The translations under genes were made by a program, and so were the position numbers. Shown one piece after another: positions 7,029-44,599 of a stretch of 64,000 bases of DNA. The notes beneath the pieces are model-generated. The model saw only the letters and a list, made by a program, of their open reading frames with translations. It had not been told where the DNA came from and searched no databases. Position 1 is the first letter of the stretch. Each line of letters starts with the position of its first letter. This DNA is from a phage, in sequence record PZ445429.1; one strand, given 5' to 3'.

Positions 7029-7796
7029 TTATTCAGCAGCCGCAGCTTTTGCATCCAGTTTAGCACGCTTAGCAGCACCATCATAGTCCTTAGCAACCAG
7101 ACCACGACGAGACAGCATAGATTTAACACCGCGCTCAGACTTACCAGTTTTCTCAGCAACTTCTGCAACAGTCATAGAAGCCAGATCCAGACCTTCTAAC
7201 AGATCTTCACGAGTCTTAGCACTTGATGTTTCCTGTACCGGCATAGCAGCGATACGACCTTCACGAAGCAGGCTCAGAGCTTTACCACGGATCTGCTTAA
7301 TATTACGACCGAAGTGAGCAGCGATAGCTTCAATAGTAGCACCAGCAACAACCTGATTAACGAAATCAGTTTCTTCGTCAGGAGTGAAGGAACGAACAGC
7401 AGCAGCTTTTTCAGTTGGCTTAACAGAAGCGGTCATTTCCAGACTCAGGATCTTACCCTGTACCTGCTTAGCACCGAACTGACCACCAGCTACAGCAGCA
7501 GCGATTTCAGCGTAAGTATACTGACCAGCATGAGCGTTCAGGAAATCAACTAGTTCAGCTTCCTGCTCAGGAGTCCACGGGGATTTCTGTACTTCGTTAG
7601 CTTTCTGTACTTCGAAACCTTCTTTACGCAGCTTAGAGCCAACAGAGCGAGCGGTAACGTCTTTGCCAGTCTCGGTAGCCAGTTCAGCAGCGATAGCAGC
7701 TACTTGTTCTTGAGAGATTACAGCAACACCCAGAGCAGTGGCTTTTGCTTTCAGAGACTCGGTTACACCTTCTACGTTCCAGTTCAGTTTAGACAT
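7029..7796 (-). CDS. hypothetical Ala/Glu-rich protein with internal ~45-aa repeats (possible DNA-binding)
   Basis: 255-aa ORF, GC-richer codon usage; repeats TPEQEAELVDFL... and TPDEETDFVNQV...; minus-strand terminator downstream. Confidence 0.5.
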   Translation of the reverse strand: MSKLNWNVEGVTESLKAKATALGVAVISQEQVAAIAAELATETGKDVTARSVGSKLRKEGFEVQKANEVQKSPWTPEQEAELVDFLNAHAGQYTYAEIAAAVAGGQFGAKQVQGKILSLEMTASVKPTEKAAAVRSFTPDEETDFVNQVVAGATIEAIAAHFGRNIKQIRGKALSLLREGRIAAMPVQETSSAKTREDLLEGLDLASMTVAEVAEKTGKSERGVKSMLSRRGLVAKDYDGAAKRAKLDAKAAAAE

Positions 7797-8571
7797 TATT
7801 ATTTTTCTCCAATAGTTCTTTAATCGACAGGATTTCTATCCCATTCGTTTCGGCTTTCTTATAAGATGAGGAAGAACGTTTTGATTCATCCTCACAGATT
7901 AGGTATTTGACGTCTTTGGTAACGGACTTCTTGACCGTATATCCTAGACTTTCTAAATAGTTTGTTGCATCCGTTCGATTTGCAAAGTCTTGCAAAGATC
8001 CGGTAATACAGACCGTGATTCCATTTGGCTGGGCAACTAAATCATCTGTAATGATGATATCAGCTTTAGCACCTCGAATACCAGTTGAGAATTTCCACGG
8101 TAGTTCAATAACATCCTTGCCTTGTGGGGAATTTAGCCAGGTTTTGTAATTTTCTCCAGCCTTGCCGTCAGCCTTCACATCGTGGAAGCTAGTGCAATTT
8201 TGGGACAGTTTCTTTGCTGCAACCTCTCCAATAAGAGGAATTCCTAAAGAACCGAGAACTGAACCAAAGTCAATGTCTCCGCGAACCTTAGTATTTAACT
8301 CGCTAATCAACTTAGCGGCAACCTTGCTACCCACAGCTCCTACCAAATCTTCTTCGGTCAGGTAAAACAGTTCTGAGATCTTAGTCAGCTCCAGCTTCTC
8401 AATAGTTTTCGGGCCAAAGCCCTTTAACTTCATTTTTGTGCAGAAGTTCTCGATTAACTTACTTGATTGCGCTGGACAGTTGGACTTATTCCTACAGAAT
8501 AATTGCCCGTTGACAAGATCTAGCTTAGAACCACAAGAGGGACATTGTGTTGGAATTTCGATTTTCATCAA
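7789..8571 (-). CDS. NAD-dependent DNA ligase, C-terminal part (Zn finger, HhH, BRCT-like)
   Basis: 260 aa; CPSCGSKL...C..C zinc motif, HhH GFGPKTIEKL. Confidence 0.8.
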   Translation of the reverse strand: MMKIEIPTQCPSCGSKLDLVNGQLFCRNKSNCPAQSSKLIENFCTKMKLKGFGPKTIEKLELTKISELFYLTEEDLVGAVGSKVAAKLISELNTKVRGDIDFGSVLGSLGIPLIGEVAAKKLSQNCTSFHDVKADGKAGENYKTWLNSPQGKDVIELPWKFSTGIRGAKADIIITDDLVAQPNGITVCITGSLQDFANRTDATNYLESLGYTVKKSVTKDVKYLICEDESKRSSSSYKKAETNGIEILSIKELLEKNNNV

Positions 8572-8598
8572 ATTTCTTCCTTATCAATTTATATAAAT

Positions 8599-8627
8599 AT
8601 TATAGCAAGTATTTAAGCATTTAGCAA
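8599..8627 (-). promoter_or_regulatory. N25-type promoter in the gap between the two ligase ORFs
   Basis: Minus strand: TTGCTA, 17 bp, TATAAT then TATAAATTGATAAGGAAG before ATG of 7789-8571; a second TTGACA-17-TATACT lies further upstream. Confidence 0.6.
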
Positions 8628-8770
8628 CTACAATTTTAACTAACTTTGCTTACCCTCGCCATAACTTTCTATCCCTCAACTGAATGATAATAGTATATAC
8701 CTAAGCGGCGAAAATGTCAATAACCACTTTATAATTCCGACATGGTAAACGGGTAGCAAAGGGTTACGAA

Positions 8771-9745
8771 TTAGTCGTATACTCGCTCTACTATACAAGG
8801 GATTACACCACCAGCACGAATCACTCGAATCTGGCAACCGATCTCTAAATCGAGAGCGTTAATATAATCAACGTTATTAAGAGTTGCTTTAACGATTGTG
8901 GCATCATCAATAATCACCGGTTCGAAATAACCAACTGGAGTTACTTTACCAGAAGCCCCTACTTGCCATTCAACTTTAACAAGTGTGGTAATTTCGCCTT
9001 CTTCATCCTCTTTAATAGCAAATGCACCACGAGGAAATTTATTAGTCCAACCTTCACGGAAGAATTTGTTGTTATCATTAATACGAACAACTTTACCATC
9101 TGTCGGAATCCATTTAAAGAAGGAACGAACATTAATAACTGTCAAGAAGTTCTCATTCTCTAGCCAAAGCATATCTTTTAAATAGGCTTCTGTAATACCG
9201 ACTGTTTCCGCTGAACACTGGATACCATATGCAACGAAGATTAAACCACCTTCACCAATACGTTGCATGAAATCATCACTATCTTTTAGGTTAATAGCAC
9301 CAGAAGCATAGTTACGTTTGTTCTCTACTTCTTTAGTAATGAGAACTTCACCAGTGATTTGAGTTGGTACTTTTTGGGAAATAGTTTTGGGGATGTTCAG
9401 CATTTTAACATTATGCGTTACATCATTCCCTAGAATACCGTTACCACGAGTTAACGCTTGAACAAACTCACCATTAATATATAATAGAGAAATCGCACAA
9501 CCATCTAACTTATCAGTTTCAACCTGACCAAGTGGGTTGAATGGAGCTTTATCACCACGATCGTAATAGACTTTCTGCAAAGAATACATACGATACAAAT
9601 GAGGGATATCACCTTTCGGTCCGATTTCTTCCTCTAGTGGGAATCTTTTAATCAGACGATCATATTCTTCATCGGAAATAAGACTCATTCCCTGGTAGTA
9701 CGCTTCTTGACAACGTTTAATAAAGTCTTTTACATTATTCATCAT
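8771..9745 (-). CDS. NAD-dependent DNA ligase, N-terminal part (adenylation plus OB fold)
   Basis: 324 aa; adenylation motif TDKLDGCAISLLY (KxDG); OB-like C-terminus. Confidence 0.85.
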   Translation of the reverse strand: MMNNVKDFIKRCQEAYYQGMSLISDEEYDRLIKRFPLEEEIGPKGDIPHLYRMYSLQKVYYDRGDKAPFNPLGQVETDKLDGCAISLLYINGEFVQALTRGNGILGNDVTHNVKMLNIPKTISQKVPTQITGEVLITKEVENKRNYASGAINLKDSDDFMQRIGEGGLIFVAYGIQCSAETVGITEAYLKDMLWLENENFLTVINVRSFFKWIPTDGKVVRINDNNKFFREGWTNKFPRGAFAIKEDEEGEITTLVKVEWQVGASGKVTPVGYFEPVIIDDATIVKATLNNVDYINALDLEIGCQIRVIRAGGVIPCIVERVYD

Positions 9746-15820: not shown

Positions 15821-15850
15821 ACAGAGAAAACCGAGCCAAAATGACTCGGT
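15821..15850 (-). terminator. terminator-like hairpin (minus strand)
   Basis: ACCGAG...CTCGGT hairpin followed on minus strand by TTTTCTCTG. Confidence 0.5.
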
Positions 15851-15873: not shown

Positions 15874-16269
15874 TCAATCATCATTTAGGCCTGGAACATA
15901 GATCCCAATGCGATTTAATTTACCTTTAGCTTCTTCGAGAATATCTTCGGTGTACTCCCAAATATCATCTTCTACTTGCAAAAGATAAGGGGATTCACCA
16001 GTTTCGGGGTCACGTGTAATGGCTAAGCCACGTGGATGGAATATAGAGAAGTTGAGGGCAACAATCAAGCCCATACTGGACAATTCATTCCAGTCAGCTT
16101 CCCAACCATCATCTTCATCTTCGTCCACAAAGACACCTACACTAGGGTCTGTTACAGAAGTAAACGGAAATGTTACACTAACCTTGTCAACCCCCAACCA
16201 ACGTGCAAGGAGCCCTTCAGCACGCTCTACCAAACTAGGATCTATCTGACGCCAAAATACTTGTTCCAT
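15874..16269 (-). CDS. hypothetical protein, tandem paralog A
   Basis: 131 aa; shares W.EL..MGL..ALN...F.P...GE.P...V...W.Y..E...KL.R.G.Y.PGL pattern with the next ORF. Confidence 0.5.
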   Translation of the reverse strand: MEQVFWRQIDPSLVERAEGLLARWLGVDKVSVTFPFTSVTDPSVGVFVDEDEDDGWEADWNELSSMGLIVALNFSIFHPRGLAITRDPETGESPYLLQVEDDIWEYTEDILEEAKGKLNRIGIYVPGLNDD

Positions 16270-16278
16270 TCTGCCTCC

Positions 16279-16707
16279 TTAAGCAGTTAAACCTGGGATC
16301 ATATACCCTAAACGACGAAGTTTCTGAATCCCCTCATTTACTTCTTCGGGCGAATATGACCAGCCCTCACGTTCATTTACCTGGAAAGCAGGAGCTTCAC
16401 CAGTGCGATAGTTTACAATAAGACGGTGATTTGCAGGCATAAACAGCTTATGGTTCAAGGCAAAAACCAGACCCATTTCATCGAGTTCTTTCCAGTCTAC
16501 AATTTCTTCTACTCCCTCACCTAAATCCACGCTAACTCCAATACATGGAGCTTCCTCTAGTGGGCCTTTAAAGGATAGGAAGATATCGTTATTCTCACAC
16601 CAAATCTTAAGCAGATTGATGGTTTCATTATACATACCATTAGGGAGAGAACGCCAGAAGTTGAGGAGCATAGGGTTTACCTCTTTCATGAAAAGATTAT
16701 CGAACAT
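16279..16707 (-). CDS. hypothetical protein, tandem paralog B
   Basis: 142 aa; paralog of 15874-16269. Confidence 0.5.
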   Translation of the reverse strand: MFDNLFMKEVNPMLLNFWRSLPNGMYNETINLLKIWCENNDIFLSFKGPLEEAPCIGVSVDLGEGVEEIVDWKELDEMGLVFALNHKLFMPANHRLIVNYRTGEAPAFQVNEREGWSYSPEEVNEGIQKLRRLGYMIPGLTA

Positions 16708-16709: not shown

Positions 16710-17249
16710 TTACACCTTAAGTTTCTGAAGAGCCTTACACATTTCAAGATCTGGACTAAACTCCAGCATATAGCTGATAGCATTTAAATCTTGAAGGTTT
16801 ATTCCAGTCCTGCCATTTACAATAACAGTAGGGAATTGGTACATCATAGCACCAGCATCATCTAGGACACACCAATGCTTGAGCTTATATTTTTCGACGA
16901 AACGTAAAACAGAATTACCCCGAGATAAACCACCTCCAGTAAAATCTGTTGTACCAAGGAAACGATCGATCAAACCGAGTCCGGTCATAATCTGAACGTT
17001 CTCCATTTCATTTCGTACAGAAAACCATGAAGAGACCCCAACAATCATTATTGGGGAGGGTTTAAGAAAGTTCTGAAAAGCCTGGAGTAATGGCTTATAA
17101 ACCCAATCACTGCCAAAGAACAGCTTTTCACTGTCTGGAGCATGATGGTGAGAGATGCTCGAATTGAGCACCCCATCAATATCCAGGAAAATCACAGGAG
17201 TATTACTTATTTCCACTAGTAGCATCCCACGTCCAGACTTTAACTTCAT
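16710..17249 (-). CDS. HAD-superfamily phosphatase-like protein
   Basis: 179 aa; HAD motif I VIFLDIDGVLN; start codon uncertain. Confidence 0.5.
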   Translation of the reverse strand: MKLKSGRGMLLVEISNTPVIFLDIDGVLNSSISHHHAPDSEKLFFGSDWVYKPLLQAFQNFLKPSPIMIVGVSSWFSVRNEMENVQIMTGLGLIDRFLGTTDFTGGGLSRGNSVLRFVEKYKLKHWCVLDDAGAMMYQFPTVIVNGRTGINLQDLNAISYMLEFSPDLEMCKALQKLKV

Positions 17250-17391
17250 CAGTAAAAGGAACCGGAACCTTCAATTCACCTTTACCCCACATAACAGATA
17301 GGAACAGAGAATAAATGGTAATCATACCGATTAGGTTGACAAACCATACTAGACCTTTCCAGATACCCTTAAAAATCTTCTTCACCATATT
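17203..17391 (-). CDS. small membrane protein
   Basis: Internal ATG preceded by AGGGAG; hydrophobic segment LIGMITIYSLFLSVMWG. Confidence 0.45.
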   Translation of the reverse strand, partial: NMVKKIFKGIWKGLVWFVNLIGMITIYSLFLSVMWGKGELKVPVPFTDEVKVWTWDATSGNK

Positions 17392-17551
17392 CTCCCTCCT
17401 TAATAAGGAACTCTTTCCATTCTGCTGTATCCTCATAGATAACGCAGAAATCATCACTCTTCCATGAGAAGTCATCGGTAGCAAATTCGAAACGGTAGCA
17501 CCAACTACCGTCCGGCCATACTAAAAGATCACACATGCTCTTGCGGTGCAT
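17369..17551 (-). CDS. hypothetical small protein
   Basis: 60-aa ORF overlapping both neighbours; weak. Confidence 0.3.
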   Translation of the reverse strand: MHRKSMCDLLVWPDGSWCYRFEFATDDFSWKSDDFCVIYEDTAEWKEFLIKEGEYGEEDF

Positions 17552-18380
17552 AAATAGTTCCTTCCATAAAGGCTTCTACTTGACCAATGAAATGCTTGTT
17601 ACCAAAAACTTCGGCAGCTCCAGCACGCCATACAGTAACACCACGTTTCTCATACTCAAGCTGTTCATCATAACGAACTTGAGGATTAACAACCATCATC
17701 TTAGTTCCACGACATACAGCAGGAAATAATTCCCAGTTGAAGTTGATAACTTGGTTGCTACAACCCACCACAATAACCATGTCATTGCTAGTAAGAGTAT
17801 CAAACAGGTTGATTTGACCCATGTACCACGGAGCCGTCTCACCAAAGAATGTTACGTTTGGTTTTACCCATTCGTAATCCTCAGGGGCAATCGCAGTATA
17901 CCCAACATCTTCGATGATTTGGTTGCGACCCTGACGATAGATCACCTCTTTCAAGTACCCGTGAGCGTGAATGATTTCATCACGAGGGATACCAGCACGT
18001 TCCAGAAGGTCATCAACGTTAGTAGTGAAGTTCTTCACGCTATCCGCACCATAACGCTGGAACCATTCTGCAATTCGCAGATGGGCAATGTTAGGCTCAA
18101 CAGTCTGTAATTCCTGACGACGCATGTTGTAGAACTCATGAGTCTTGAGATATAGATCGTTACCATCTTCATCAATGCCAGGGAAACGAGCACTGAAGTA
18201 GTTAGGATCATCTTCACCACAGAAGCGACGGAAGCCAGCTTCAAAGTTAGGCAAGCTACATACTTCCTCTAGATCGTACTCATCCCACAAGGATTTCCCA
18301 CTAGCAGTATCAGTACGGAATGCACGGATACCACTATCAACACTTAAACCAGCACCACTAACAACGATTAGTCTACGCAT
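17529..18380 (-). CDS. Sir2-family NAD-dependent protein (no canonical zinc ribbon seen)
   Basis: 283 aa; GAGLSVDSGIRAFR, TTNVDDLLERAG, HAHG, FFGE, VVGCS motifs; no CxxC...CxxC module. Confidence 0.75.
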   Translation of the reverse strand: MRRLIVVSGAGLSVDSGIRAFRTDTASGKSLWDEYDLEEVCSLPNFEAGFRRFCGEDDPNYFSARFPGIDEDGNDLYLKTHEFYNMRRQELQTVEPNIAHLRIAEWFQRYGADSVKNFTTNVDDLLERAGIPRDEIIHAHGYLKEVIYRQGRNQIIEDVGYTAIAPEDYEWVKPNVTFFGETAPWYMGQINLFDTLTSNDMVIVVGCSNQVINFNWELFPAVCRGTKMMVVNPQVRYDEQLEYEKRGVTVWRAGAAEVFGNKHFIGQVEAFMEGTIYAPQEHV

Positions 18381-18574
18381 TATACGATTCCTTGCTTGAA
18401 TCCTTCGATGATATTTTGGAGCAGAATTGCTTCTTCTGGGCGAACCTTCTCTTGCTTAATAAGCATATCCAAACCAGCAATACAGGTAGCTACTCCAGCA
18501 TTATACCCAGCATTCCACTGCTCCATGAGCATATTTTCTAAATTACTTTTTAGATTCTGATTCAAGAAGTCCAT
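18380..18574 (-). CDS. hypothetical small protein
   Basis: Internal ATG (MDFLNQ...) preceded by GGAGG. Confidence 0.4.
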   Translation of the reverse strand: MDFLNQNLKSNLENMLMEQWNAGYNAGVATCIAGLDMLIKQEKVRPEEAILLQNIIEGFKQGIV

Positions 18575-18746
18575 AAAGTTTTTCCTCCAATTCCATAATA
18601 CGATTTTCGTAAGAAGCACGCAGCTTCTCGATGGACAAAGCACGAACTGTAACTTCATCTGAATTGATCGCTAGCTGAGCTAGATCTTCTGTTTCCATAC
18701 GTCCGTTGTAAATTAAGCGATATTTGAGATGTTTTACGTTTTTCAT
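18543..18746 (-). CDS. hypothetical small protein
   Basis: 67-aa ORF, coiled-coil-like. Confidence 0.35.
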   Translation of the reverse strand: MKNVKHLKYRLIYNGRMETEDLAQLAINSDEVTVRALSIEKLRASYENRIMELEEKLYGLLESESKK

Positions 18747-18755
18747 TCTTGTTCC

Positions 18756-19037
18756 TTAGTTCTGTACTGTAAACTCATTCTTATCACAGTGAGCATAATA
18801 ATACCCATACATACGATAAATTTTCACAGCCTTAGTAGACCCCTTCGATTCTTCATAATCGATCCAGAGCCACTTGTCTTTACCTACATAATGTACCCGA
18901 AACTTCTTAACTTTCTTATCATTCCATGTTGCAACAACACGACGATAATCAAATCCGCCCAACCAATCTAGAGCCTTACGTTCTTCACTAGGCTCTCCAA
19001 GATGGGAAACATCTACTTTAGGAAGCAATTCGCTCAT
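18756..19037 (-). CDS. hypothetical protein
   Basis: 93-aa ORF. Confidence 0.5.
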   Translation of the reverse strand: MSELLPKVDVSHLGEPSEERKALDWLGGFDYRRVVATWNDKKVKKFRVHYVGKDKWLWIDYEESKGSTKAVKIYRMYGYYYAHCDKNEFTVQN

Positions 19038-19135
19038 AGCTTTCTCCTCTCAAATTTATAAATCAATTATACATAAGTTTTAGCTAGAAAGCAAATAAAA
19101 TAAAAGCCAGGTCGACTAGCAACCTGGCTGATTCA

Positions 19136-35331: not shown

Positions 35332-35959
35332 TAATAGTGGGGTGCCGAAACCACTTATGTAACAACACTGCCGTCCTAGTATAATAGGTATTATTAGGGC
35401 TTCACCGCCTGAAGATGTGGGTTCGAGTCCCACGGTCGGAAAGAGTTGGATAACTGGTGCTTCTAATGGCGAAGCAATCGCAGGCAGTTGCGCACTGCCA
35501 AAACCACGCGGTAGTTGGTTCCAGGCTAACCAACCACTCTTGAAAAGTATATACTATGGTTTTGCTTGTTCAAGAAGCTTCGCATCGAAAATCGGAGGTG
35601 CGATTTTATCCGACCGCGTGGAGGACGTCTCTCCGTTAAGTGACGAAAAGTGGGACGATTCAGGTAGAGCTGGATATGGAACACCTATACATATGCGGAG
35701 TGCGCACAAAGCATATTGCGGTGGTACTAAACGAAATTAGGAGTCATGACCTGCACAAGTTTAGTATGTCATAACCGATGTACATTCAGTACAAAAACCA
35801 CTGAAGCTAAGATAGATAGTCACCTTGACTTAAACTGGAAGATATTGTCTGACGGAAGGGCTGCAGAGCTTAATCTGAGGGGGCTGACCCTACCTACCGT
35901 CGGGTATCTTTAAGAGCTTTTATAAGAGTTCTTAAAAATACCTAACAAAAGGAATCAAT
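35332..35959 (+). ncRNA. ORF-poor GC-rich structured region downstream of an HNH gene
   Basis: ~630 nt; perfect T-arm-like hairpin GTGGG-TTCGAGT-CCCAC at 35417-35433 without matching acceptor; only a doubtful GTG-start ORF. Confidence 0.3.
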
Positions 35960-36469
35960 ATGAATCTAGGAACAACTTGTATCTTTGATCATCAAGAAAT
36001 GTGTTGCCCTCGTATTCTGCATATAGCACACTTCTCCGAACGATTGACGCTTGATCAAGCTCGTGAGAAAATGAGTGAGATTACAGGATACAATCTTCGA
36101 GAAGGTGAATACTTTAGCGTAGCTTTGGATTATATCGACAATACTCGTCTTTATCACTTAGTTCAGCTTGGTGAAGAAACTGAGGAAGTAAAAATGGCGA
36201 AAGATACATTACGTCGTTATCGCCCTCAGATTCTAGAGCGTACACTTCGTGGAGAGCCTAGTGATTACTTCTATATGCGTTGCTATGACGCAGATGCTAC
36301 TCAATATGTTAATCTAAATCGCTTCTATCATGATGTGAATGATTTTCTGGACAAGAAATATGATGAATTAATCATAGCATCCAAAGCACAACGTGCCGCT
36401 AGAAATGCTGAAAAGGCTGCTAAAGAAGCTGTAGAAAGCCAAACTAAATTGAACGAAATCATTAAGTAA
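35960..36469 (+). CDS. hypothetical protein
   Basis: 169-aa ORF with RBS AAAAGGAATC. Confidence 0.5.
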   Translation: MNLGTTCIFDHQEMCCPRILHIAHFSERLTLDQAREKMSEITGYNLREGEYFSVALDYIDNTRLYHLVQLGEETEEVKMAKDTLRRYRPQILERTLRGEPSDYFYMRCYDADATQYVNLNRFYHDVNDFLDKKYDELIIASKAQRAARNAEKAAKEAVESQTKLNEIIK

Positions 36470-36477
36470 TCAACTTT

Positions 36478-36552
36478 CGGGGTGTAGTCTAAAGGAGAGG
36501 CAGGAGTCTTCTAAATTCCTTTATGCAGGTTCGAATCCTGTCACCTCGGCCA
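36478..36552 (+). tRNA. tRNA-Arg (anticodon TCT)
   Basis: Hand-folded cloverleaf: acceptor CGGGGTG/CACCTCG, T-loop TTCGAAT, anticodon loop CTTCTAA, CCA encoded. Confidence 0.7.
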
Positions 36553-36585
36553 ATTTTATTAACTGTAATTAAACAAAGGAAATAT

Positions 36586-37530
36586 ATGTTTACTAAAAAC
36601 ACTAAAGAACTGACTTCTGAGCAAAAAGTAATTCGCACTATCAAACGTTGGGGTGTTGGTGCTGTATTTGGTCTTGGCGCTATTATTCTGGCTCTCAATT
36701 CCTACACAGTTGTTCAGGATGGTACTGTTAAGACTCAAACCTTCCTGGGTAAAGTTAGCCCGAACCCTGTACTGCCCGGCTTCCATATTGTTAACCCATT
36801 TGCTTCTTTTGATACTTTTAGTACGAAAGATATTTCTATGAAACTGGATAAACTTCAGGTTCCTAGCCAGGATAAGTTTAAGTCTACTGTTGACATTACC
36901 GTTATGTTGCAGTTTGATGGTGCTAAAGCTCCTATGAACCGTGTTAACGCAGGTACTCAGGATCAGGCTCTGAACAAGTACGTTGAAGAGAAGATGCTAT
37001 CTACGATTCGTGAGTTTGGTAAGTCTGTACCAAAAGCACAAGATCTGTTCGACGCTAAGATTCAGGCTCAACTGCAAACTGCTATTCAGCAAGAAGTAGA
37101 AGAGTATGCGCGTCCTTATGGTTACACCGTTAAGCAAGTATTCCTTCAGGATATTACTCTGCCACCGGTAATCATGGAACAGGTACAGAACACCAAAGTT
37201 CGTGAAGAACAAGTTAACGCTGCAAAAGCTGAACTGGCTCGTGTTGAACAAGAAGCACAGCAGAAAGTTAAGCAAGCTGAGGCAGATCGTTCCGCTCGTG
37301 AAAACATGGCAGTAGCTAACGAACGTGACGCAGATGCTAAACTGTACGCAGCTAAGAAAGAAGCTGAAGCTAACGCCGCTCTGCAACGTACCATTACTCC
37401 TGAAATGATTCGTTGGAAGCAGCTGGAAGTTGAAATGCTTCGTGCTGAAAAATACCAAGGTGGTGTACCGCAGACTGTTGTTGGTACTGGCTATGATGGT
37501 CAAATGATCATGGATATGCGTAACAAGTAA
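36586..37530 (+). CDS. SPFH/band-7 domain membrane protein
   Basis: ATG 36586; N-terminal TM WGVGAVFGLGAIILAL, SPFH core, Ala/Glu/Gln-rich coiled-coil tail; two terminator hairpins follow. Confidence 0.75.
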   Translation: MFTKNTKELTSEQKVIRTIKRWGVGAVFGLGAIILALNSYTVVQDGTVKTQTFLGKVSPNPVLPGFHIVNPFASFDTFSTKDISMKLDKLQVPSQDKFKSTVDITVMLQFDGAKAPMNRVNAGTQDQALNKYVEEKMLSTIREFGKSVPKAQDLFDAKIQAQLQTAIQQEVEEYARPYGYTVKQVFLQDITLPPVIMEQVQNTKVREEQVNAAKAELARVEQEAQQKVKQAEADRSARENMAVANERDADAKLYAAKKEAEANAALQRTITPEMIRWKQLEVEMLRAEKYQGGVPQTVVGTGYDGQMIMDMRNK

Positions 37531-37555
37531 TAGTTACACGTAATCTTCGAACCAA

Positions 37556-37590
37556 GCCCGCGTTTCCTCCGAGAGCGCGGGCTTTTCTGT
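37556..37590 (+). terminator. rho-independent terminator after SPFH gene
   Basis: GCCCGCG...CGCGGGC plus TTTTCTGT. Confidence 0.75.
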
Positions 37591-37600
37591 ATTTAAGACA

Positions 37601-37640
37601 AAAGAAAAGCCCCTTACCTTTCGGCAGGGGCTTTGTTTTT
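37601..37640. terminator. bidirectional terminator at a convergent gene junction
   Basis: AGCCCCT...AGGGGCT hairpin with T-runs on both strands. Confidence 0.65.
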
Positions 37641-37847
37641 GGTTTAGAACCATATACTCTTGTTACAGCAACCACCCATACGGGAGACCAATCTTGACTG
37701 AAAATCTACTCTAGGGGGCAGGATAAGAGTAGGCTTAAAGGCAAACGGATTGAACACCGGTATTTGCGTAAACATTGCTGGAGAGCAACAACGTGCTACA
37801 GGCATTGGGCAGCATGACGTAGGTTTTCTACAACACATATAAACTCC

Positions 37848-38267
37848 TTAGGATTTCTCCCCATTTTGCGCTTTTGCAACTTGACTTTGACAGAAACTGT
37901 TAAACTTACCCATAAGTGATACAAGTTGCTTTCCATCCTCTGTTTTAGCGAAGTCTTCGAAAAGGGCTAGAACAGCCTGTCCTTCCGCAGATACCTGCGG
38001 TTGTTGGGTTTGTTGAGTCATCTGCTGCTGTGGTTGCATTTGCTGAGGCATCATCTGCTGAGGCATCATTTGTTGCATTTGCATTTGCGGCTGCATTTGC
38101 ATCTGGTTGATGTTTCCCTGCGGGTTTTGCAGGGAATTTTGCATTTGCTGTGCTTCTGCCAATCTCTGTTGCAACTGTTGTAAGTAGGGGTTATCAAGCC
38201 CCGGAACGGGCTGCTGGGAGCCCATACTTTGATTAAATCCGTTGTTCACAAAACCATATTTACTCAT
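37848..38267 (-). CDS. Gln/Met-rich low-complexity protein
   Basis: 139 aa, QMQMQPQMQMQQMMPQQ repeats; opposite strand to flanking genes; terminator downstream. Confidence 0.5.
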   Translation of the reverse strand: MSKYGFVNNGFNQSMGSQQPVPGLDNPYLQQLQQRLAEAQQMQNSLQNPQGNINQMQMQPQMQMQQMMPQQMMPQQMQPQQQMTQQTQQPQVSAEGQAVLALFEDFAKTEDGKQLVSLMGKFNSFCQSQVAKAQNGEKS

Positions 38268-38289
38268 GATGGGCTCCTCCCCTTAATTA

Positions 38290-39285
38290 TTAAGCCGGCA
38301 GTTTAGCCTGCAGACCAGCCAGAGTCTGAGTGATAGCACCAAGACTTACAGCGATTTGGTTGATTACCTGACCGTTAGCACCACTACCCTGAGCGATAGC
38401 TTCACGCAGACGGCATTCGTTCAGTTCGTCCTGAATACGCGCAGTAGTTACACCAGCGATTGCAGACTGAAGTTCACAGCAGCATTCAGCGATCTGACGT
38501 TCCAGAGCGTTCTGGTTAGCACAAGCCTGAGCAGCTACAGCAGCGAACTGGTTGTTAGTCTGGATAGACTGAGCAAACATGATCTGAGCGGTATCGAACT
38601 TGTCTTGAGCACGTGCGATCTGGTTAGCAGCGAAAGCTTGATCCATCTGGCGAGAAAGATCGAACTGACCCTGAATAACGTTACGAGTTTCCTGACAGAT
38701 CTGGTTGGACAGGTTAGCACCAGTACCGTAGATCGTAGTCAGAAGCTGTTGAGTACTAGCAGCTTGAGCAGCTCCTACACCATTTACTGCACTCAGAACA
38801 GCACCAGTACCCTGATTAGCTTCAGTACGAGTAGTGTTGATTGCAGCTAGAATACTTGCAGTATCCTGGTTAGAAAGGATCGCGTCCACAGCAGTTCCCT
38901 CAGCGGCAACACCAGCACCGCGGCCAAAACCACCGAAACCACCGAATCCACCTGTTAATAGAGCACCGATTAAGATAGCTCCGAATAGACCCATACCTTC
39001 ACCACCGAAAGCACCGTTAGCAACTGCTGGGTAACCACCCATTAGGCCAGGGAAGCCACTAGTGAATACGTTTACTGGTTCTTGCATTTTATGTTTTCCA
39101 TGTTTATGACAATGTTCATCATCGTCATCTTCTTCATCATCTTCATCGTGTTCACGATGTTCTTTTTCGTAGGCTTTGACCTTCTCCCACTTTTTCTTGT
39201 CTGATTCTTCGTGACGACGCAGTTCTGCTGCTACGCCAGCGACCGTATCAGGACTCTTAGCTACTTCTTCTGTCATTTTTGACAC
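38290..39285 (-). CDS. glycine-zipper membrane protein with acidic/His-rich N-terminus and Gln/Ala-rich tail
   Basis: 331 aa; EHDEDDEEDDDDEHCHKHGKHK, GAILIGALLTGGFGGFGGFG, Q/A-rich C-terminus. Confidence 0.55.
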   Translation of the reverse strand: MSKMTEEVAKSPDTVAGVAAELRRHEESDKKKWEKVKAYEKEHREHDEDDEEDDDDEHCHKHGKHKMQEPVNVFTSGFPGLMGGYPAVANGAFGGEGMGLFGAILIGALLTGGFGGFGGFGRGAGVAAEGTAVDAILSNQDTASILAAINTTRTEANQGTGAVLSAVNGVGAAQAASTQQLLTTIYGTGANLSNQICQETRNVIQGQFDLSRQMDQAFAANQIARAQDKFDTAQIMFAQSIQTNNQFAAVAAQACANQNALERQIAECCCELQSAIAGVTTARIQDELNECRLREAIAQGSGANGQVINQIAVSLGAITQTLAGLQAKLPA

Positions 39286-39482
39286 CTCCTAGTATATAGA
39301 AAATGTGTGTCTCTTTGATCACTCATCCATAACATATACTTTACACTACCCCAGCGAAAATGTCAAGGGGTCTTTAAAAATTGCCCCCGGATTTTTAGTG
39401 GGGTAACAATTTCTGGACCTCACCACTCACCTGCTACCCTTAAGTGCCCTGCGATTTTCCACTAAAAAGTTTAAAAATTCGA

Positions 39483-39511
39483 TTGCTTGAATGCTAAATT
39501 CTCTATATAAT
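39483..39511 (+). promoter_or_regulatory. N25-type early promoter (nadR-like operon)
   Basis: TTGCTT, 17 bp, TATAAT then TATAAATTTGAGAGAGG. Confidence 0.7.
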
Positions 39512-39541
39512 ATATTTATAAATTTGAGAGAGGAATCAAAT

Positions 39542-40597
39542 ATGATTAAGACTGGTCTAGTAATTGGTAAGTTCGCACCATTAACGCGTGGTCATATTAA
39601 CCTAATAAACACAGCAGCAACTATGTGTGAACGAGTTATTGTTGTAGTTAGTCATGATAATCGTTGGCTGGATAAGCAGAACACACGTGATCAGGAAGTA
39701 TTACAGTTAAAGAATCGACTTCGTTGGTTAGAACAAACTTACGCGGATATTGAGCACATTTCGGTAGAGTACATTATTGAAGATGATATTCCTGAATATC
39801 CGAATGGTTGGCCGGAATATGCTAGAATCCTTAATGAAAATTACGGACATTTGCCTGAGATCACCATTTTCTCTAGCGAACTAGACTATGATGCAGAATA
39901 TAAGAAATATCTGCCGAAGTTTGGTCATTATATTGTAGATTCTGATCGGACTCGTGTTCCAATCTCAGCTACAATGATTCGTAATGATCTTATGAAGTAT
40001 TGGGAGTTTCTTCCTAGCGTAGTTCGTAAAGATTACGTGCGTAAGGTTGTAATCATTGGGACTGAAAGCTCGGGAAAGACTACTTTAACAAAATACCTTG
40101 CGAAGCTATACAACACTTCGTGGGTAGAAGAATATGGCCGAACGTATTGTGAAGTTGATCTAGTTGGTAACGAAAATCTACTTACCAGTGAAGATTATAG
40201 TAAAATTGCGTTCAGACACAAAGAGCTAGAGTTTGAAGCAGAACGTACTGCAAATAAGATCATGTTTGTGGATACAAATGCTTTTATTACTGAGTTCTAC
40301 CACAGACTTTATGAACATCGTAAGAATCCTGTGGTTACAGCAATTGCAAAAGAAGAACATTACGATTTAGTAATTGTTCTAGCGCCTACTGTTAAGTGGG
40401 TAGATGATGGTTTACGTATTAACTCCGATCGTTCAATTACTTCTGAACTGTTCGAGCAGATGAAGAAAGAATTTCCAAATCAGTTCCCTGAAGGGCGTAC
40501 TGTTTACATCGACTCCCCGGACTACAAAGTTCGTATGGACGAAGCAGTAAACGCAGTAGACTGGCTGATTCATCACTTTAACGTTGGAGAGTTTTAA
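39542..40597 (+). CDS. nadR: NadR-like bifunctional NMN adenylyltransferase / ribosylnicotinamide kinase (no HTH domain)
   Basis: ATG 39542; GKFAPLTRGH motif, C-terminal Walker A GTESSGKTT. Confidence 0.8.
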   Translation: MIKTGLVIGKFAPLTRGHINLINTAATMCERVIVVVSHDNRWLDKQNTRDQEVLQLKNRLRWLEQTYADIEHISVEYIIEDDIPEYPNGWPEYARILNENYGHLPEITIFSSELDYDAEYKKYLPKFGHYIVDSDRTRVPISATMIRNDLMKYWEFLPSVVRKDYVRKVVIIGTESSGKTTLTKYLAKLYNTSWVEEYGRTYCEVDLVGNENLLTSEDYSKIAFRHKELEFEAERTANKIMFVDTNAFITEFYHRLYEHRKNPVVTAIAKEEHYDLVIVLAPTVKWVDDGLRINSDRSITSELFEQMKKEFPNQFPEGRTVYIDSPDYKVRMDEAVNAVDWLIHHFNVGEF

Positions 40598-40598
40598 T

Positions 40599-41276
40599 AT
40601 GACTAACTATCTTGTAAATGACTTTAAAAACTGGAAACCTTTGGAATATCTGTGGCTGTTTATAGCAGTCGCCTTTATTAGTTTAGCAAACTATAATGGT
40701 ACAGCTCTAGATTGGGCTACTGCAATAACCAATGTGGTTTGTGTTATTCTGGTTGCAAAAGGACGTGTTTCCAACTATATTTGGGGCTTAGTGGGTGTTC
40801 TTACATACGGTATTACAGCTTTAAACGCAGATCTTTATGGTAATGCTGCACTAAACCTGCTATACTACGTTCCTATGCAGTTTTATGGAATGTACTTATG
40901 GCATAAAAATAAGCCAAGTAATCTGCCAGATGTTCCAACTAAGGTTCTGAATAAAGCCCAAGCTCTGCTGACTCTAGGGATTCTAGCAGTAGCTACTTTA
41001 GGTTACGGCAGCTTCCTTGCTACTACCGCTGATCCATTCCCAATGCTTGACGCATTTACTGCGGTTGGTAGTGTGATTGCTATGTGGCTTATGGTCAAAC
41101 AATATGCTGAACAATGGCTGATTTGGATTGTTATTAACATTGGTACTGTGTACATTTGGCTTGTAACTGCTCAATCTACAGGTGCATCTTACGCAATCCT
41201 AGCAATGTGGCTAGTATTCTTAGGCAACTCTATTCTTGGAGCTTATAAAGGATACTTTGTACGCGTTAACAAATAA
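40599..41276 (+). CDS. pnuC: PnuC-like nicotinamide riboside transporter
   Basis: ATG 40599; polytopic membrane protein with SNYIWGL motif; adjacent to nadR-like gene. Confidence 0.7.
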   Translation: MTNYLVNDFKNWKPLEYLWLFIAVAFISLANYNGTALDWATAITNVVCVILVAKGRVSNYIWGLVGVLTYGITALNADLYGNAALNLLYYVPMQFYGMYLWHKNKPSNLPDVPTKVLNKAQALLTLGILAVATLGYGSFLATTADPFPMLDAFTAVGSVIAMWLMVKQYAEQWLIWIVINIGTVYIWLVTAQSTGASYAILAMWLVFLGNSILGAYKGYFVRVNK

Positions 41277-41283
41277 AGTAGTT

Positions 41284-41310
41284 ATAGCCCTCTAAGCGAG
41301 GGCTATTATA
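41284..41310 (+). terminator. terminator-like hairpin after pnuC
   Basis: AGCCCTC-TAAGC-GAGGGCT then ATTATA; weak U-tract. Confidence 0.45.
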
Positions 41311-41323
41311 CAGAAATTTTCAC

Positions 41324-41352
41324 TTGCTTAATATAGAAAATTTCTGTATAAT
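41324..41352 (+). promoter_or_regulatory. N25-type early promoter
   Basis: TTGCTT, 17 bp, TATAAT then ATAAATTCGAGAGAGAGAGG. Confidence 0.7.
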
Positions 41353-41386
41353 ATATTTATAAATTCGAGAGAGAGAGGAATCAAAC

Positions 41387-41683
41387 ATGAAACGCATTGT
41401 ACTTGCATTGACTCTAGTATCTACTTCTGTATTTGCTGCTCCGCAACAGGAACTTTGTCAAGTTCAGGTTTGTAATAAGTTAGAACGATTTACTTTGGAT
41501 ATTTGGTCACACATTAAAGATAATATGGGTGAACAGTGTTTTGATATTGTTCTGCCAAAAGAGCAGGCTGTTCCTGGTGCTGTTCTTAGCTCAGAGTCAC
41601 GTTGGTGGCAGGGTTCTTCTATCAACCCAACTAAGAAGTCAGTGACACGTATCAAACAGGTATATCAGTGCAATGTTCAGTAA
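41387..41683 (+). CDS. secreted small protein
   Basis: 98 aa, signal peptide MKRIVLALTLVSTSVFA. Confidence 0.5.
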   Translation: MKRIVLALTLVSTSVFAAPQQELCQVQVCNKLERFTLDIWSHIKDNMGEQCFDIVLPKEQAVPGAVLSSESRWWQGSSINPTKKSVTRIKQVYQCNVQ

Positions 41684-41691
41684 AATTTCAC

Positions 41692-41720
41692 TTGCTTAAT
41701 GCCGAAATTTTCTGTATAAT
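41692..41720 (+). promoter_or_regulatory. N25-type promoter driving tRNA-Ser/tRNA-CAT
   Basis: TTGCTT, 17 bp, TATAAT; tRNA begins ~15 nt downstream. Confidence 0.7.
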
Positions 41721-41734
41721 ATATTCATAAATTT

Positions 41735-41828
41735 GGAAGATTAACCCTAAAGGTAAGGGAGCTGTTTGCTAAACAGCCAGTAACTGTGGATACACGGTGT
41801 GCCAGTTCGAATCTGGCATCTTCCTCCA
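41735..41828 (+). tRNA. tRNA-Ser (GCT), type II
   Basis: Acceptor GGAAGAT/ATCTTCC, T-arm GCCAG-TTCGAAT-CTGGC, loop TTGCTAA, long variable arm, CCA. Confidence 0.75.
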
Positions 41829-41833
41829 AATTT

Positions 41834-41911
41834 GGTTCTCAAGCTCATTTGGTATGAGCCGTCGCCTCATAAGCGAAAGGTAGGTAGGTTCGAATCCTCC
41901 GGGAGCCACCA
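41834..41911 (+). tRNA. tRNA with CAT anticodon (Met or Ile2)
   Basis: Acceptor GGTTCTC/GGGAGCC, D-stem GCTC/GAGC, loop CTCATAA, CCA. Confidence 0.65.
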
Positions 41912-41928
41912 ATTAATTAGGAGACTAT

Positions 41929-42114
41929 ATGTCTAGATTCTACGAAATGAAGAAAGCATTAGAAGAATGTCGGTGTAAGGACTGTCATGGTGGTGGTAGG
42001 CAGGATGATGCAGAACCTGGGGATATTTTCTGTAGAGAATGGGAATGTCCTACATGTAAAGGTACTGGTATCAACCCTGAATATGCAATTTGTCTAGACA
42101 TTGAGCGAGGCTAA
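41929..42114 (+). CDS. small zinc-ribbon protein
   Basis: 61 aa; CRCKDCHGG...CPTCKG. Confidence 0.45.
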   Translation: MSRFYEMKKALEECRCKDCHGGGRQDDAEPGDIFCREWECPTCKGTGINPEYAICLDIERG

Positions 42115-42454
42115 GATGGATATTTTTACTACTCCGGCAATAAACCTTTTAGGTGTTGGCTTGTTCCAAGCTACGGTGTATCGTACTGATGATTCTACTG
42201 ATGTGGTAACGTTCATCGTACCTGAGTTCTTCCTAGAAAAGTTCTTTGAAGAGTTTGAGCAGTTCCGTGAAGAACACAATGCTCATTCCGATATGGAAGA
42301 TCTAGCAGCTATGTTCCCTGTGGTTTACGGCTATATCTTTGAAGGTAATGGCCTAGATCTTAATAAATCTGAACTCGTTGAACTTAACTGGGGCATCAAT
42401 TTTGAAGTTGGCTCTCCATTTCCTCGATATTTCCAGGGTTTAGAGATTCGATAA
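42101..42454 (+). CDS. hypothetical protein
   Basis: 117-aa ORF; stop 8 nt before a tRNA. Confidence 0.5.
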   Translation: MSEAKMDIFTTPAINLLGVGLFQATVYRTDDSTDVVTFIVPEFFLEKFFEEFEQFREEHNAHSDMEDLAAMFPVVYGYIFEGNGLDLNKSELVELNWGINFEVGSPFPRYFQGLEIR

Positions 42455-42462
42455 GATTACAT

Positions 42463-44593: not shown

Positions 44594-44599
44594 AATTTA

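What the first reader, a model, noticed from the sequence alone, without database searches (positions are those of the whole stretch)
17529..18380. Sir2-family protein without a zinc ribbon, in a genome that also carries an NAD salvage pair
The 283-aa ORF has core sirtuin motifs (GAGLSVDSGIRAFR, TTNVDDL, HG, FFGE, VVGCS) but no CxxC...CxxC zinc module. The same window encodes a NadR-like NMNAT/RNK and PnuC (39542-41276) and an NAD-dependent ligase. Inference: the phage manipulates or defends host NAD pools, for example against NAD-depleting defence systems.
Basis: partly seen in the sequence, partly recalled or inferred. Interest (0 to 1): 0.65.

Follow-up and report, generated by a model that had tools for sequence, protein, structure and literature searches.

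The report
Zinc-free sirtuin of T5-like phages
This T5-like phage gene encodes an NAD-using sirtuin that has lost its zinc-binding cysteines; the gene family and the NAD-salvage pair elsewhere in the window are already described, and the sirtuin's neighbours point to RNA-end repair rather than NAD-pool control, although its substrate has never been tested.

Summary
A 283-aa Sir2-family ORF lies at 17529-18380 on the minus strand. It keeps every NAD-pocket and catalytic residue (GAGxS, N121, D123, H140) and has no cysteine where the zinc ribbon should be.

The window is an Epseptimavirus, 99% identical to Salmonella phage bux. More than 900 phage genomes already annotate this gene as "Sir2-like".

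The NadR/PnuC pair is real. It is 350/351 and 221/225 identical to Bas30_86/87, shown experimentally in 2026 to be "NARP3", an NAD-rebuilding counter-defence. The sirtuin is not part of it:
- It lies 22 kb away in a different operon.
- T5 has the sirtuin but no NadR or PnuC.
- At least 531 of 964 sirtuin-bearing phage records lack any NadR-like gene.

The sirtuin sits in a tight early operon with a "Swiss-army-knife" HAD phosphatase. In rV5-like phages its homologue is flanked by an RNA ligase, a cREC domain, a kinase and a phosphoesterase. In a jumbo phage it is followed by a Nudix-cREC fusion. Iyer et al. (2022) described this pattern and predicted a KptA/Tpt1-like RNA 2'-phosphate removal.

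By sequence and fold the protein most resembles CobB/SIRT5 deacylases, not defence NADases. No biochemical test was found in the searched library. The feature is already known; interest is modest.

The parts
17529..18380 (-). Zinc-less sirtuin (283 aa). GAGxS at 9-13; Y84/R87 (equivalent to CobB Y92/R95); T119-T120-N121-V122-D123; catalytic H140; FFGE 178-181; degenerate ribbon 141-177.
16710..17249 (-). HAD-superfamily phosphatase of the 'Swiss-army-knife RNA repair' type (PF18143), with nucleophile motif D23-I-D25-G-V. Same operon as the sirtuin. The start used in the phage bux annotation is 17225.
17369..17551 (-). 60-aa acidic ORF between the sirtuin and the HAD (phrog_5116, function unknown). 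Overlaps the sirtuin stop by 23 nt.
17203..17388 (-). 61-aa basic ORF between the sirtuin and the HAD (phrog_11166, function unknown).
18380..19037 (-). Three small upstream ORFs of the same operon: 18756-19037, 18543-18746 and 18380-18574 (PHROGs 7953, 5236, 5827, all of unknown function).
15874..16707 (-). Two paralogous DUF7415 proteins (16279-16707 and 15874-16269, 32% identical to each other) that close the operon.
19105..19129 (-). Terminator-like hairpin (10-bp stem) after nrdD. Marks the upstream boundary of the sirtuin operon. T5 has a terminator plus early promoter T5P31 at the equivalent place.
15830..15850 (-). Terminator-like hairpin (9-bp stem) that ends the nine-gene operon.
39491..40597 (+). 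NadR-like NMNAT plus ribosylnicotinamide kinase without the HTH domain (NARP3 enzyme). The annotated start at 39542 gives 351 aa, 350/351 identical to Bas30_86. Not part of the sirtuin module; it is an NAD supplier.
40584..41276 (+). PnuC-type nicotinamide riboside transporter (NARP3 transporter), 221/225 identical to Bas30_87.
7789..9745 (-). Split NAD-dependent DNA ligase: A subunit 8771-9745, B subunit 7789-8571. This is the other NAD consumer of the phage.
35369..51027 (+). Array of 28 tRNA genes, in which the NARP3 pair is embedded. These are possible beneficiaries of an RNA-repair function.

Best explanation
The gene encodes a catalytically competent, early-expressed phage sirtuin derived from class III (CobB/SIRT5-type) enzymes. 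It binds NAD+ and cleaves off nicotinamide, but it belongs to a phage-specific clade that has lost the zinc ligands. In T5-like phages it works together with the co-operonic HAD phosphatase. The most likely job is healing of damaged RNA, probably tRNA cut by host nucleases. Proposed chemistry: a 2'-phosphate on the RNA attacks C1'' of NAD+ in place of the acyl oxygen of a normal sirtuin substrate. The His140-activated 2''-OH then attacks the phosphorus, releasing RNA with a free 2'-OH plus ADP-ribose 1'',2''-cyclic phosphate. This is the same two-step logic as Tpt1/KptA. The HAD (or cREC, Nudix, phosphoesterase in other phages) would either trim the RNA end or detoxify the ADP-ribose phosphate by-product. 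Shown here computationally: the fold, the intact NAD and catalytic residues, the loss of zinc ligands, the operon structure, the recurrent RNA-repair neighbours, and independence from NARP3. Inferred: the RNA substrate, the chemistry, and the partner roles.
For: Three phage lineages place this sirtuin clade next to different RNA-end-processing genes. (a) T5-like phages: HAD_SAK_2 is in the same operon. The two genes overlap by 20 nt in phage L6jm. The order is inverted in Erwinia phage KEY but the linkage is kept. Both were lost in a single in-frame deletion in DT57C. 27 of 60 viral loci have the HAD within 0.5 kb downstream. (b) rV5-like phages: a T4-Rnl1-type RNA ligase - cREC - sirtuin operon, with a divergent P-loop kinase and calcineurin-like phosphoesterase beside tRNA genes. 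11 of 60 loci show this fully and 2 partially. (c) Jumbo phage XbC2: the sirtuin is followed by a Nudt16-like Nudix-cREC fusion. cREC and HAD are phosphate or cyclic-phosphate enzymes that a deacylase would not need. No Macro domain is adjacent. Catalytic N121, D123 and H140 and the anion-binding pair Y84/R87 are invariant across 30 diverse members. The operon is annotated as early in T5. The phage carries 28 tRNA genes. The same prediction was made independently by Iyer et al. 2022 (PMC9503650).
Against: No biochemical test was found in the searched library. The role of HAD_SAK_2 is itself only a prediction. The protein is acidic (pI 4.8; clade median 5.05; median net charge -12) with only eight conserved basic positions, mostly in the NAD pocket. 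It is more acidic than the RNA ligase and kinase partners (pI 6.5-6.7) and than the window's median ORF (6.1). That is unlike an enzyme that grips RNA on its own. The closest sequence and structure relatives are all protein deacylases, and the acyl-lysine tunnel residues F179 and V211 are kept. T5-like phages have no RNA ligase or kinase next to the sirtuin, so a complete repair pathway is not evident there. 20 of 60 loci, including the phAPEC8/KP13-26-like group, show no RNA-repair neighbour with my seed proteins.
Confidence: 0.4

Rival explanations
1. It is a genuine protein lysine deacylase of the CobB/SIRT5 type, probably preferring acidic acyl groups (succinyl, malonyl). It would remodel host or phage proteins early in infection. 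Zinc is replaced by packing of the shortened ribbon.
For: The best sequence and fold matches are CobB (phmmer 1.4e-16; profile 2e-24; Foldseek TM 0.83), Sir2Af1, SIRT5 and Hst2. Y84/R87 align with CobB Y92/R95: PDB entry 6rxs, the Y92A mutant, shows Ala opposite Y84. This pair is invariant in the clade. By established knowledge it recognises the succinyl/malonyl carboxylate in SIRT5 (Y102/R105). F179 of the FGE loop, V211 and catalytic H140 are conserved. All NCBIfam hits are deacylase models.
Against: Scores are far below every deacylase equivalog cut-off (88 bits against 243; 72 against 320). The near-universal V-x-P substrate-loop proline is replaced (V211-I212-N213), and that loop is the least confident part of the core in the model (pLDDT 65). 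The Gln of TQNxD is Thr throughout the clade. The zinc ligands, needed in canonical deacylases by established knowledge, are gone. The gene neighbours (HAD, cREC, RNA ligase, kinase) make no sense for a deacylase. Host CobB restricts phages T4 and lambda-vir (PMC4271551), so a phage-borne general CobB mimic is counter-intuitive.
Confidence: 0.3
2. One reading: the sirtuin is part of an NAD-pool strategy together with NadR/PnuC. It would act as an NADase, a decoy, or a regulator that manipulates or defends NAD levels against NAD-depleting defences.
For: The same genome carries NARP3 and an NAD-dependent ligase. Other sirtuin-bearing lineages also carry NAD salvage genes: XbC2 has NadM/NadV-like genes 4-6 kb upstream, and VH7D/KVP40 and some Klebsiella myoviruses have NadR-like genes. 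Zinc-less SIR2 domains in defence systems are NADases (background knowledge; PMC9503650).
Against: The sirtuin is 22 kb from NARP3, on the other strand, in another operon. T5 has the sirtuin but no NadR/PnuC. At least 531 of 964 sirtuin-bearing records lack a NadR-like gene. 0 of 60 loci have NadR/PnuC within 6 kb. There are no PADLOC hits and no defence SIR2 among the top 50 fold matches. The NARP3 study needed only the two genes. An NAD-destroying enzyme would work against a phage that depends on NAD for its own ligase.
Confidence: 0.07
3. It is a macromolecular mono-ADP-ribosyltransferase (like SirTM sirtuins, or functionally like T4 Alt/ModA/ModB), or an enzyme acting on a small phosphorylated ADP-ribose or nucleotide signal. 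It would modify a host protein, nucleic acid or messenger rather than repair RNA.
For: The NAD pocket and nicotinamide-cleavage residues are intact. The gene is early-expressed and is an accessory gene that is lost without lethality. Alleles differ sharply between otherwise near-identical genomes: 52% for the sirtuin against 91-97% for its flanks, as is common for host-interaction genes. The Nudix, HAD and cREC partners could equally process small ADP-ribose phosphates. The acidic surface is compatible with a protein or small-molecule substrate.
Against: There is no adjacent Macro or other reversal enzyme. The catalytic His is retained, whereas (from memory, not tested) dedicated ADP-ribosylating SirTM sirtuins replace it. 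The RNA ligase and polynucleotide kinase in the rV5-type operon are RNA-specific.
Confidence: 0.15

Closest known systems
Phage 'RNA-repair' sirtuin clade of Iyer, Burroughs, Anantharaman & Aravind 2022 (PMC9503650, section 3.7.3), neighbourhood type 3 (Escherichia phage SP15: sirtuin + Swiss-army-knife HAD)
   Same: Same clade and same neighbourhood. It is phage-borne, sits next to HAD_SAK_2 and has no Macro partner. Homologues in rV5-like and jumbo phages have the RNA ligase/cREC/kinase and Nudix-cREC contexts the paper lists. I verified all of this independently.
   Different: Nothing substantive. The paper does not mention the loss of the zinc ligands, and its functional claim is a prediction without experiments.
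E. coli CobB (PDB 1S5P, 6RXJ) and human SIRT5: class III protein lysine deacylases
   Same: Best sequence and fold match (28% identity, TM 0.83). Shared features: GAGxS, GIRxFR, N/D, catalytic His, FGE loop, and the Y-x-x-R pair.
   Different: No Cys4 zinc site: the first knuckle is substituted and the second deleted. TQN is TTN. The V-x-P proline is lost. There is a variable 27-aa insert at residues 50-76. Scores fall far below the equivalog cut-offs. The gene context is phage RNA repair.
Sir2/CobB of KVP40-like Vibrio phages (phiSt2, phiGrn1; Skliros et al. 2016, PMC5107563)
   Same: Distant members of the same viral sirtuin group (VH7D is 32% identical). That paper already noted the absent zinc site, proposed salt bridges as a substitute, and listed the T5 and SPC35 homologues.
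   Different: It proposed deacetylation of acetyl-CoA synthetase, from modelling and transcript data only. Those phages have a different neighbourhood.
Tpt1/KptA RNA 2'-phosphotransferase
   Same: Only the proposed chemistry: NAD+-dependent ADP-ribosyl transfer to an oxygen nucleophile, followed by attack of the ribose 2''-OH. RNA-repair gene context is also shared.
   Different: Unrelated fold and no sequence similarity (Pfam finds only SIR2). Tpt1 enzymes are basic RNA binders (from memory; not tested), whereas this protein is acidic.
Defence-associated SIR2 NADases (ThsA, DSR1/2, Sir2-HerA, SIR2-APAZ/pAgo)
   Same: SIR2 Rossmann core without a Cys4 zinc ribbon; conserved Asn and His.
   Different: No PADLOC model matches. 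There is no sensor or partner domain. None appears among the top 50 fold matches. It is encoded by the phage rather than the host.
NARP3 (Bas30_86/87; Yan et al. 2026, PMC13464706)
   Same: Present in this window almost residue-for-residue. It confirms the anti-NAD-depletion function of the NadR/PnuC pair.
   Different: It is a two-gene system that does not include the sirtuin. The paper does not discuss the phage's own sirtuin or ligase.

Membership tests
Sirtuin / SIR2 superfamily (PF02146) | Profile score above the curated threshold | tested here: met
   78.9 bits against a gathering score of 24, E=6e-22; PHROG 2162 E=1.8e-107.
Sirtuin / SIR2 superfamily (PF02146) | Rossmann NAD-binding motifs (GAGxS, GIxxFR) and the catalytic Asn/Asp/His | tested here: met
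   G9-A10-G11-x-S13, F21-R22, N121, D123 and H140 are all invariant in 30 diverse members.
Sirtuin / SIR2 superfamily (PF02146) | Two-domain sirtuin fold | tested here: met
   AlphaFold2 pLDDT 87.7, pTM 0.86. Foldseek to CobB gives E=7e-16 and target-normalised TM 0.83.
Canonical (class I-IV/U) protein deacylase sirtuins | Cys4 zinc ribbon (CxxC...CxxC) in the small domain | tested here: not met
   No Cys between residues 141 and 177, in this protein or in the 30-member alignment apart from a single stray Cys in one member. First knuckle substituted, second deleted.
Class III CobB/SIRT5-type deacylase | Score at or above the NCBIfam equivalog or subfamily cut-off | tested here: not met
   NF001753: 88.3 bits against 243. 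NF040867 (CobB): 72.2 against 320.
Class III CobB/SIRT5-type deacylase | Y-x-x-R pair that binds acidic acyl groups | tested here: met
   Y84/R87 are invariant. Y84 aligns with CobB Y92, shown by the Y92A entry 6rxs.
Class III CobB/SIRT5-type deacylase | Substrate beta-staple loops (FGE and GxS...V-x-P) | tested here: inconclusive
   FFGE is conserved. V-x-P is V211-I212-N213, so the proline is lost, and this loop has pLDDT 65.
Class III CobB/SIRT5-type deacylase | NAD-dependent removal of acyl groups from lysine | not testable with these tools
   Needs enzyme assays.
Defence-associated SIR2 NADases | Match to defence SIR2 profiles, or an associated sensor/partner (SLOG, HerA, pAgo, DSR tail sensor) | tested here: not met
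   0 PADLOC hits at E<=1. The protein is single-domain, and its neighbours are small ORFs, a HAD and DUF7415 proteins.
Phage RNA-repair-associated sirtuin clade (Iyer et al. 2022) | Phage-encoded, with a conserved neighbourhood containing an RNA-end-processing enzyme (here the SAK-type HAD) and no adjacent Macro domain | tested here: met
   HAD_SAK_2 E=7.8e-18 in the same operon. The linkage is conserved in L6jm, KEY and T5 and in 27 of 60 viral loci. No Macro hit.
Phage RNA-repair-associated sirtuin clade (Iyer et al. 2022) | Removal of RNA 2'-phosphate using NAD+ | not testable with these tools
   This is a prediction only. No experiment was found in the library.
Tpt1/KptA family | Homology to the KptA fold (PF01885) | tested here: not met
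   Pfam reports only SIR2. Any similarity is mechanistic analogy, not membership.
NARP3 (the NadR/PnuC pair, not the sirtuin) | Adjacent HTH-less NadR (NMNAT + RNK) and PnuC genes, near-identical to Bas30_86/87 | tested here: met
   CTP_transf_like + AAA_28 domains. The NadR model matches from profile position 54 of 411, so the HTH is absent. PF04973 matches PnuC. Identity is 350/351 and 221/225.
NARP3 | The sirtuin is a component of the system | tested here: not met
   It lies in a different operon 22 kb away. T5 lacks NadR/PnuC but has the sirtuin. The published system is two genes.

The most novel reading that the evidence does not exclude
The phage zinc-less sirtuin clade is the first sirtuin whose physiological substrate is a nucleic-acid phosphate rather than an acyl-lysine. 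It would be a convergent, Rossmann-fold analogue of Tpt1/KptA that removes RNA 2'-phosphates (or otherwise heals nuclease-cut tRNA ends) with NAD+. It would work with HAD, cREC or Nudix partners and give phages a portable counter to RNA-cleaving immunity. The class III Tyr/Arg 'acidic acyl' pair would be repurposed to bind phosphate.
Probability: 0.3. Interest if true: 0.8.

Novelty: already known. Interest (0 to 1): 0.3.

Why it matters
If the RNA-repair reading is right, sirtuin chemistry extends from proteins to nucleic acids. Nearly a thousand sequenced phages, including the T5-like and rV5-like phages widely used in therapy cocktails, would then carry an unrecognised NAD-dependent counter-measure against tRNA/RNA-cleaving defences. 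If it is instead a zinc-free deacylase, it is a natural minimal sirtuin and a tool phages use to rewrite host acylation. In both cases the enzyme adds an NAD demand that helps explain why these phages also invest in NAD supply (NARP3) and an NAD-dependent ligase. As a scan result the item itself is not new: the gene, its clade, its neighbourhood and the salvage pair have all been published.

Tried and rejected
- PADLOC scan for defence-type SIR2: no hits. The NADase-effector idea was downgraded.
- Domain fusions among ten longer relatives from the deep search: only SIR2, plus one WG repeat. Nothing informative.
- PDB sequence search with the HAD partner: only spurious tag matches.
- BLAST of the small T5-type operon ORFs against cREC, Nudix, kinase and MazG-like partners of other lineages: no similarity. 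The only cross-hit was EmilHeitz cREC against the XbC2 Nudix C-terminus.
- Cluster look-up of distant relatives for source names: all unnamed metagenome proteins.
- Literature searches for any biochemical work on phage sirtuins, for zinc-free deacylase sirtuins (Sir2La preprint, bacterial sirtuin reviews), and for CobB Y92/R95 text: nothing usable. The Y92 equivalence was taken from the 6rxs alignment instead.
- DT57C's annotation calls T5's copy 'defective'. In the T5 ATCC record the gene is an intact 272-aa ORF; the defective state applies to DT57C-type deletions.
- An apparent stop codon in PhoH was a 3-nt coordinate offset, not a pseudogene.
- The charge/pI test gives only moderate evidence against direct RNA binding, because several partner enzymes are also acidic.
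Full report
**What is there.** The window is a T5-like phage of the genus Epseptimavirus. The 852-bp gene is 99.2% identical to Salmonella phage bux and E. coli phage Shin27, and 233 phage records match it by megablast. The ORF runs 17529-18380 on the minus strand and encodes 283 aa. It has a Shine-Dalgarno-like AAGGA upstream, and its start overlaps the preceding ORF's stop by 1 nt. It is a clear sirtuin: Pfam SIR2 E=6e-22 and PHROG 2162 E=1.8e-107. The four cysteines (41, 54, 207, 223) lie outside the ribbon segment, and there is no CxxC.

**Anatomy.** I aligned 30 homologues of 56-86% identity. The following residues are invariant:
- the NAD pocket: G9-A10-G11-x-S13, S16-G17, F21-R22;
- the nicotinamide-ribose residues N121 and D123;
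- the catalytic H140-G141;
- F178-F179-x-E181;
- G206-x-S208 and N232;
- the pair Y84/R87.

The PDB entry 6rxs is the CobB Y92A mutant, and it shows Ala opposite Y84. So Y84/R87 correspond to CobB Y92/R95. By established knowledge these match SIRT5 Y102/R105, which bind the carboxylate of succinyl- or malonyl-lysine.

Three features depart from canonical deacylases:
- the Gln of TQNxD is Thr (TTNVD);
- the V-x-P substrate loop is V211-I212-N213;
- a variable ~27-residue insert sits at positions 50-76 and is absent in many members.

**The zinc module.** AlphaFold2 gives a confident model (pLDDT 87.7, pTM 0.86). It predicts a three-stranded sheet exactly where the ribbon should be (strands 141-150, 153-158, 172-176; pLDDT 92-95). 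Low confidence is confined to the cofactor-binding loop (residues 21-30) and the 211-220 loop.

A search of 1.84 billion representative proteins found 1,632 relatives at E<=0.001. Among the best 150, "TTN" goes with zero Cys in the ribbon segment (27 against 4). "TQN" goes with three or more Cys (65 against 7). Fisher p = 2e-14, not corrected for phylogeny.

Aligning the segment shows one shared framework: HxHG...CxxC...[IV]GY...CxxC...KPNVVFFGE. In the zinc-less group the first knuckle is replaced by variable residues and the second is deleted. A zinc-bearing relative sits in a cellular context. Distant zinc-less ones sit in phage replication or early regions. The zinc loss therefore characterises a phage clade, not this gene alone.

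**What it resembles.** The best matches by sequence and by fold are all true protein deacylases:
- E. coli CobB: phmmer 1.4e-16, profile 2e-24, Foldseek TM 0.83, 28% identity;
- Sir2Af1, SIRT5, Hst2 and SIRT2.

No defence NADase appears in the top 50 fold matches, and no PADLOC model matches at all. Yet the protein scores far below every NCBIfam deacylase cut-off: 88 bits against 243, and 72 against 320. It is derived from class III sirtuins but is not an orthologue of them.

**The NAD-salvage pair.**
- The ORF at 39491/39542-40597 has cytidylyltransferase-like and AAA_28 kinase domains. It matches the NadR model from profile position 54 of 411, so the HTH domain is missing.
- The ORF at 40584/40599-41276 is a PnuC transporter.
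- They are 350/351 and 221/225 identical to Bas30_86 and Bas30_87 of phage TrudiRoth.
- A 2026 study named this pair NARP3. It showed that the pair imports nicotinamide riboside, converts it to NAD+, and reverses Sir2-HerA-mediated NAD depletion (PMC13464706).

The paper does not mention the phage's own sirtuin or ligase, and it did not test NARP3 in the native phage.

**Is the sirtuin tied to NARP3?** No.
- It lies 22 kb away on the other strand.
- It is in a nine-gene operon with intergenic gaps of -32 to +9 nt, bounded by terminator-like hairpins at 19129-19105 and 15850-15830.
- In T5 the equivalent unit is annotated with early promoter T5P31 and a terminator.
- T5 has the sirtuin (52% identical), the HAD (91%) and LigA (95%), but no NadR or PnuC anywhere in its 121,752 bp.
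- Across 50,697 phage records the sirtuin occurs in 964, while a close NARP3-type NadR (>=90% identity) occurs in about 205. Counting by genus name, at least 531 sirtuin-bearing records have no NadR-like gene of any kind.
- None of 60 viral-contig loci has NadR or PnuC within 6 kb of the sirtuin.

**What it is tied to.**
- Window: three ORFs downstream in the same operon is a HAD phosphatase of the "Swiss-army-knife RNA repair" type (PF18143, E=8e-18), with an intact D-x-D-x-V nucleophile motif.
- Tequintavirus L6jm: the two genes overlap by 20 nt.
- Erwinia phage KEY: the order is reversed but the linkage is kept.
- DT57C: a single in-frame deletion fuses the sirtuin's C-terminal part to the HAD C-terminus, destroying both. 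The module is therefore dispensable on laboratory hosts.
- Viral contigs: 27 of 60 loci have the HAD within 0.5 kb.
- rV5-like phage EmilHeitz: the 47%-identical sirtuin lies in an operon of T4-Rnl1-type RNA ligase - cREC ("cyclic-phosphate processing receiver") - sirtuin. A P-loop kinase and a calcineurin-like phosphoesterase are divergently transcribed, next to tRNA genes. 11 of 60 loci show this arrangement and 2 more show it partially.
- Jumbo phage XbC2: the sirtuin is followed by a Nudt16-like Nudix-cREC fusion.

Iyer et al. 2022 described exactly this pattern. They proposed that these sirtuins remove RNA 2'-phosphates in the manner of KptA (PMC9503650).

**Mechanism and its weight.** I favour the RNA-end-repair reading at about 0.4, because three lineages independently pair the sirtuin with phosphate or cyclic-phosphate enzymes that a deacylase would not need. 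The chemistry is also plausible. In both Tpt1 and sirtuins a substrate oxygen attacks C1'' of NAD+, and the ribose 2''-OH then attacks the substrate (established mechanisms).

The evidence against is real:
- The clade is acidic (median pI 5.05, median net charge -12), with only eight conserved basic positions.
- The acyl-lysine tunnel residues are retained.
- T5-like phages lack an adjacent ligase or kinase.
- 20 of 60 loci show no such neighbour.

The deacylase rival therefore stays at about 0.3. It is weakened by the lost proline and Gln, the missing zinc, the sub-threshold scores, and the report that host CobB restricts phages (PMC4271551). A macromolecular or small-molecule ADP-ribosyl-transfer role gets about 0.15, and the NADase/NAD-pool role about 0.07.

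**Novelty.**
- The gene is annotated as Sir2-like in hundreds of GenBank records.
- Absence of the zinc site was reported for KVP40-type phage sirtuins in 2016, in a paper that also lists the T5 homologue (PMC5107563).
- The clade and its neighbourhoods were published in 2022, and NARP3 in 2026.

The small additions from this analysis are: the description of how the ribbon degenerated, its association with TQN->TTN, the operon boundaries, the co-deletion in DT57C, the quantified independence from NARP3, and the charge argument. The substrate remains untested, and that is where the remaining interest lies.

Noticed in passing
window 16710-17249 (-); L010 3004-3516; L009 3342-3614: The HAD phosphatase gene is annotated 'Sir2 (NAD-dependent deacetylase)' in many RefSeq T5-like genomes. 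PHROG 18062 (92 positions, labelled Sir2) actually matches the HAD C-terminal half, residues 88-179. The label probably spread from DT57C-type chimeric remnants that fuse a sirtuin fragment to the HAD C-terminus.
   Followed up: partly
window 17529-18380 compared with T5 (L014/L077): The sirtuin is only 52% identical between this phage and T5, while flanking NrdD (97%), HAD (91%) and DUF7415 (68%) are much closer. This allele is nearer to those of ~148-kb myoviruses (59-61%), and T5's allele is nearer to the rV5-like EmilHeitz (56%). This suggests cassette-like exchange of sirtuin alleles between phage families.
   Followed up: partly
window ~37673-39428, ORF 38290-39285 (-): A ~1.76-kb insertion relative to phage bux lies directly upstream of the NARP3 pair. 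It carries a 331-aa ORF (phrog_8119, E=2.5e-196, function unknown) with a His/Asp/Glu-rich acidic stretch, a Gly-rich hydrophobic segment and a Gln/Ala/Asn-rich C-terminal half.
   Followed up: partly
window 35369-35442 (+): ARAGORN calls a tRNA with anticodon UCA ('tRNA-SeC'), which phage bux annotates as 'tRNA-OTHER'. It could be an opal-suppressor-like tRNA. It is the first gene in the 28-tRNA array.
   Followed up: no
window 35369-51027 (+): The NARP3 genes (39491-41276) are embedded inside the tRNA array rather than among the nucleotide-metabolism genes. The same is true in TrudiRoth (L075).
   Followed up: no
window 15874-16707 (-): Two tandem paralogous, acidic DUF7415 proteins (32% identical to each other) end the sirtuin operon. 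They are retained even in T5-like loci that lack the HAD (L019, L020, L028). Their function is unknown.
   Followed up: partly
L012 185-3393 and 5962-7670 (Xanthomonas phage XbC2): In this jumbo phage the sirtuin-Nudix/cREC pair lies only 4-6 kb downstream of a NadM-like NMNAT/ADPR-pyrophosphatase and a nicotinate/nicotinamide phosphoribosyltransferase (NARP2-like). Here the sirtuin is physically close to NAD salvage, unlike in T5-like phages.
   Followed up: no
window 21354-22115 (+): A PhoH-like ATPase is divergently transcribed two genes from the sirtuin operon. A PhoH-family gene also lies two genes downstream of the sirtuin in XbC2 (L012 8041-9492). Possibly coincidence.
   Followed up: no
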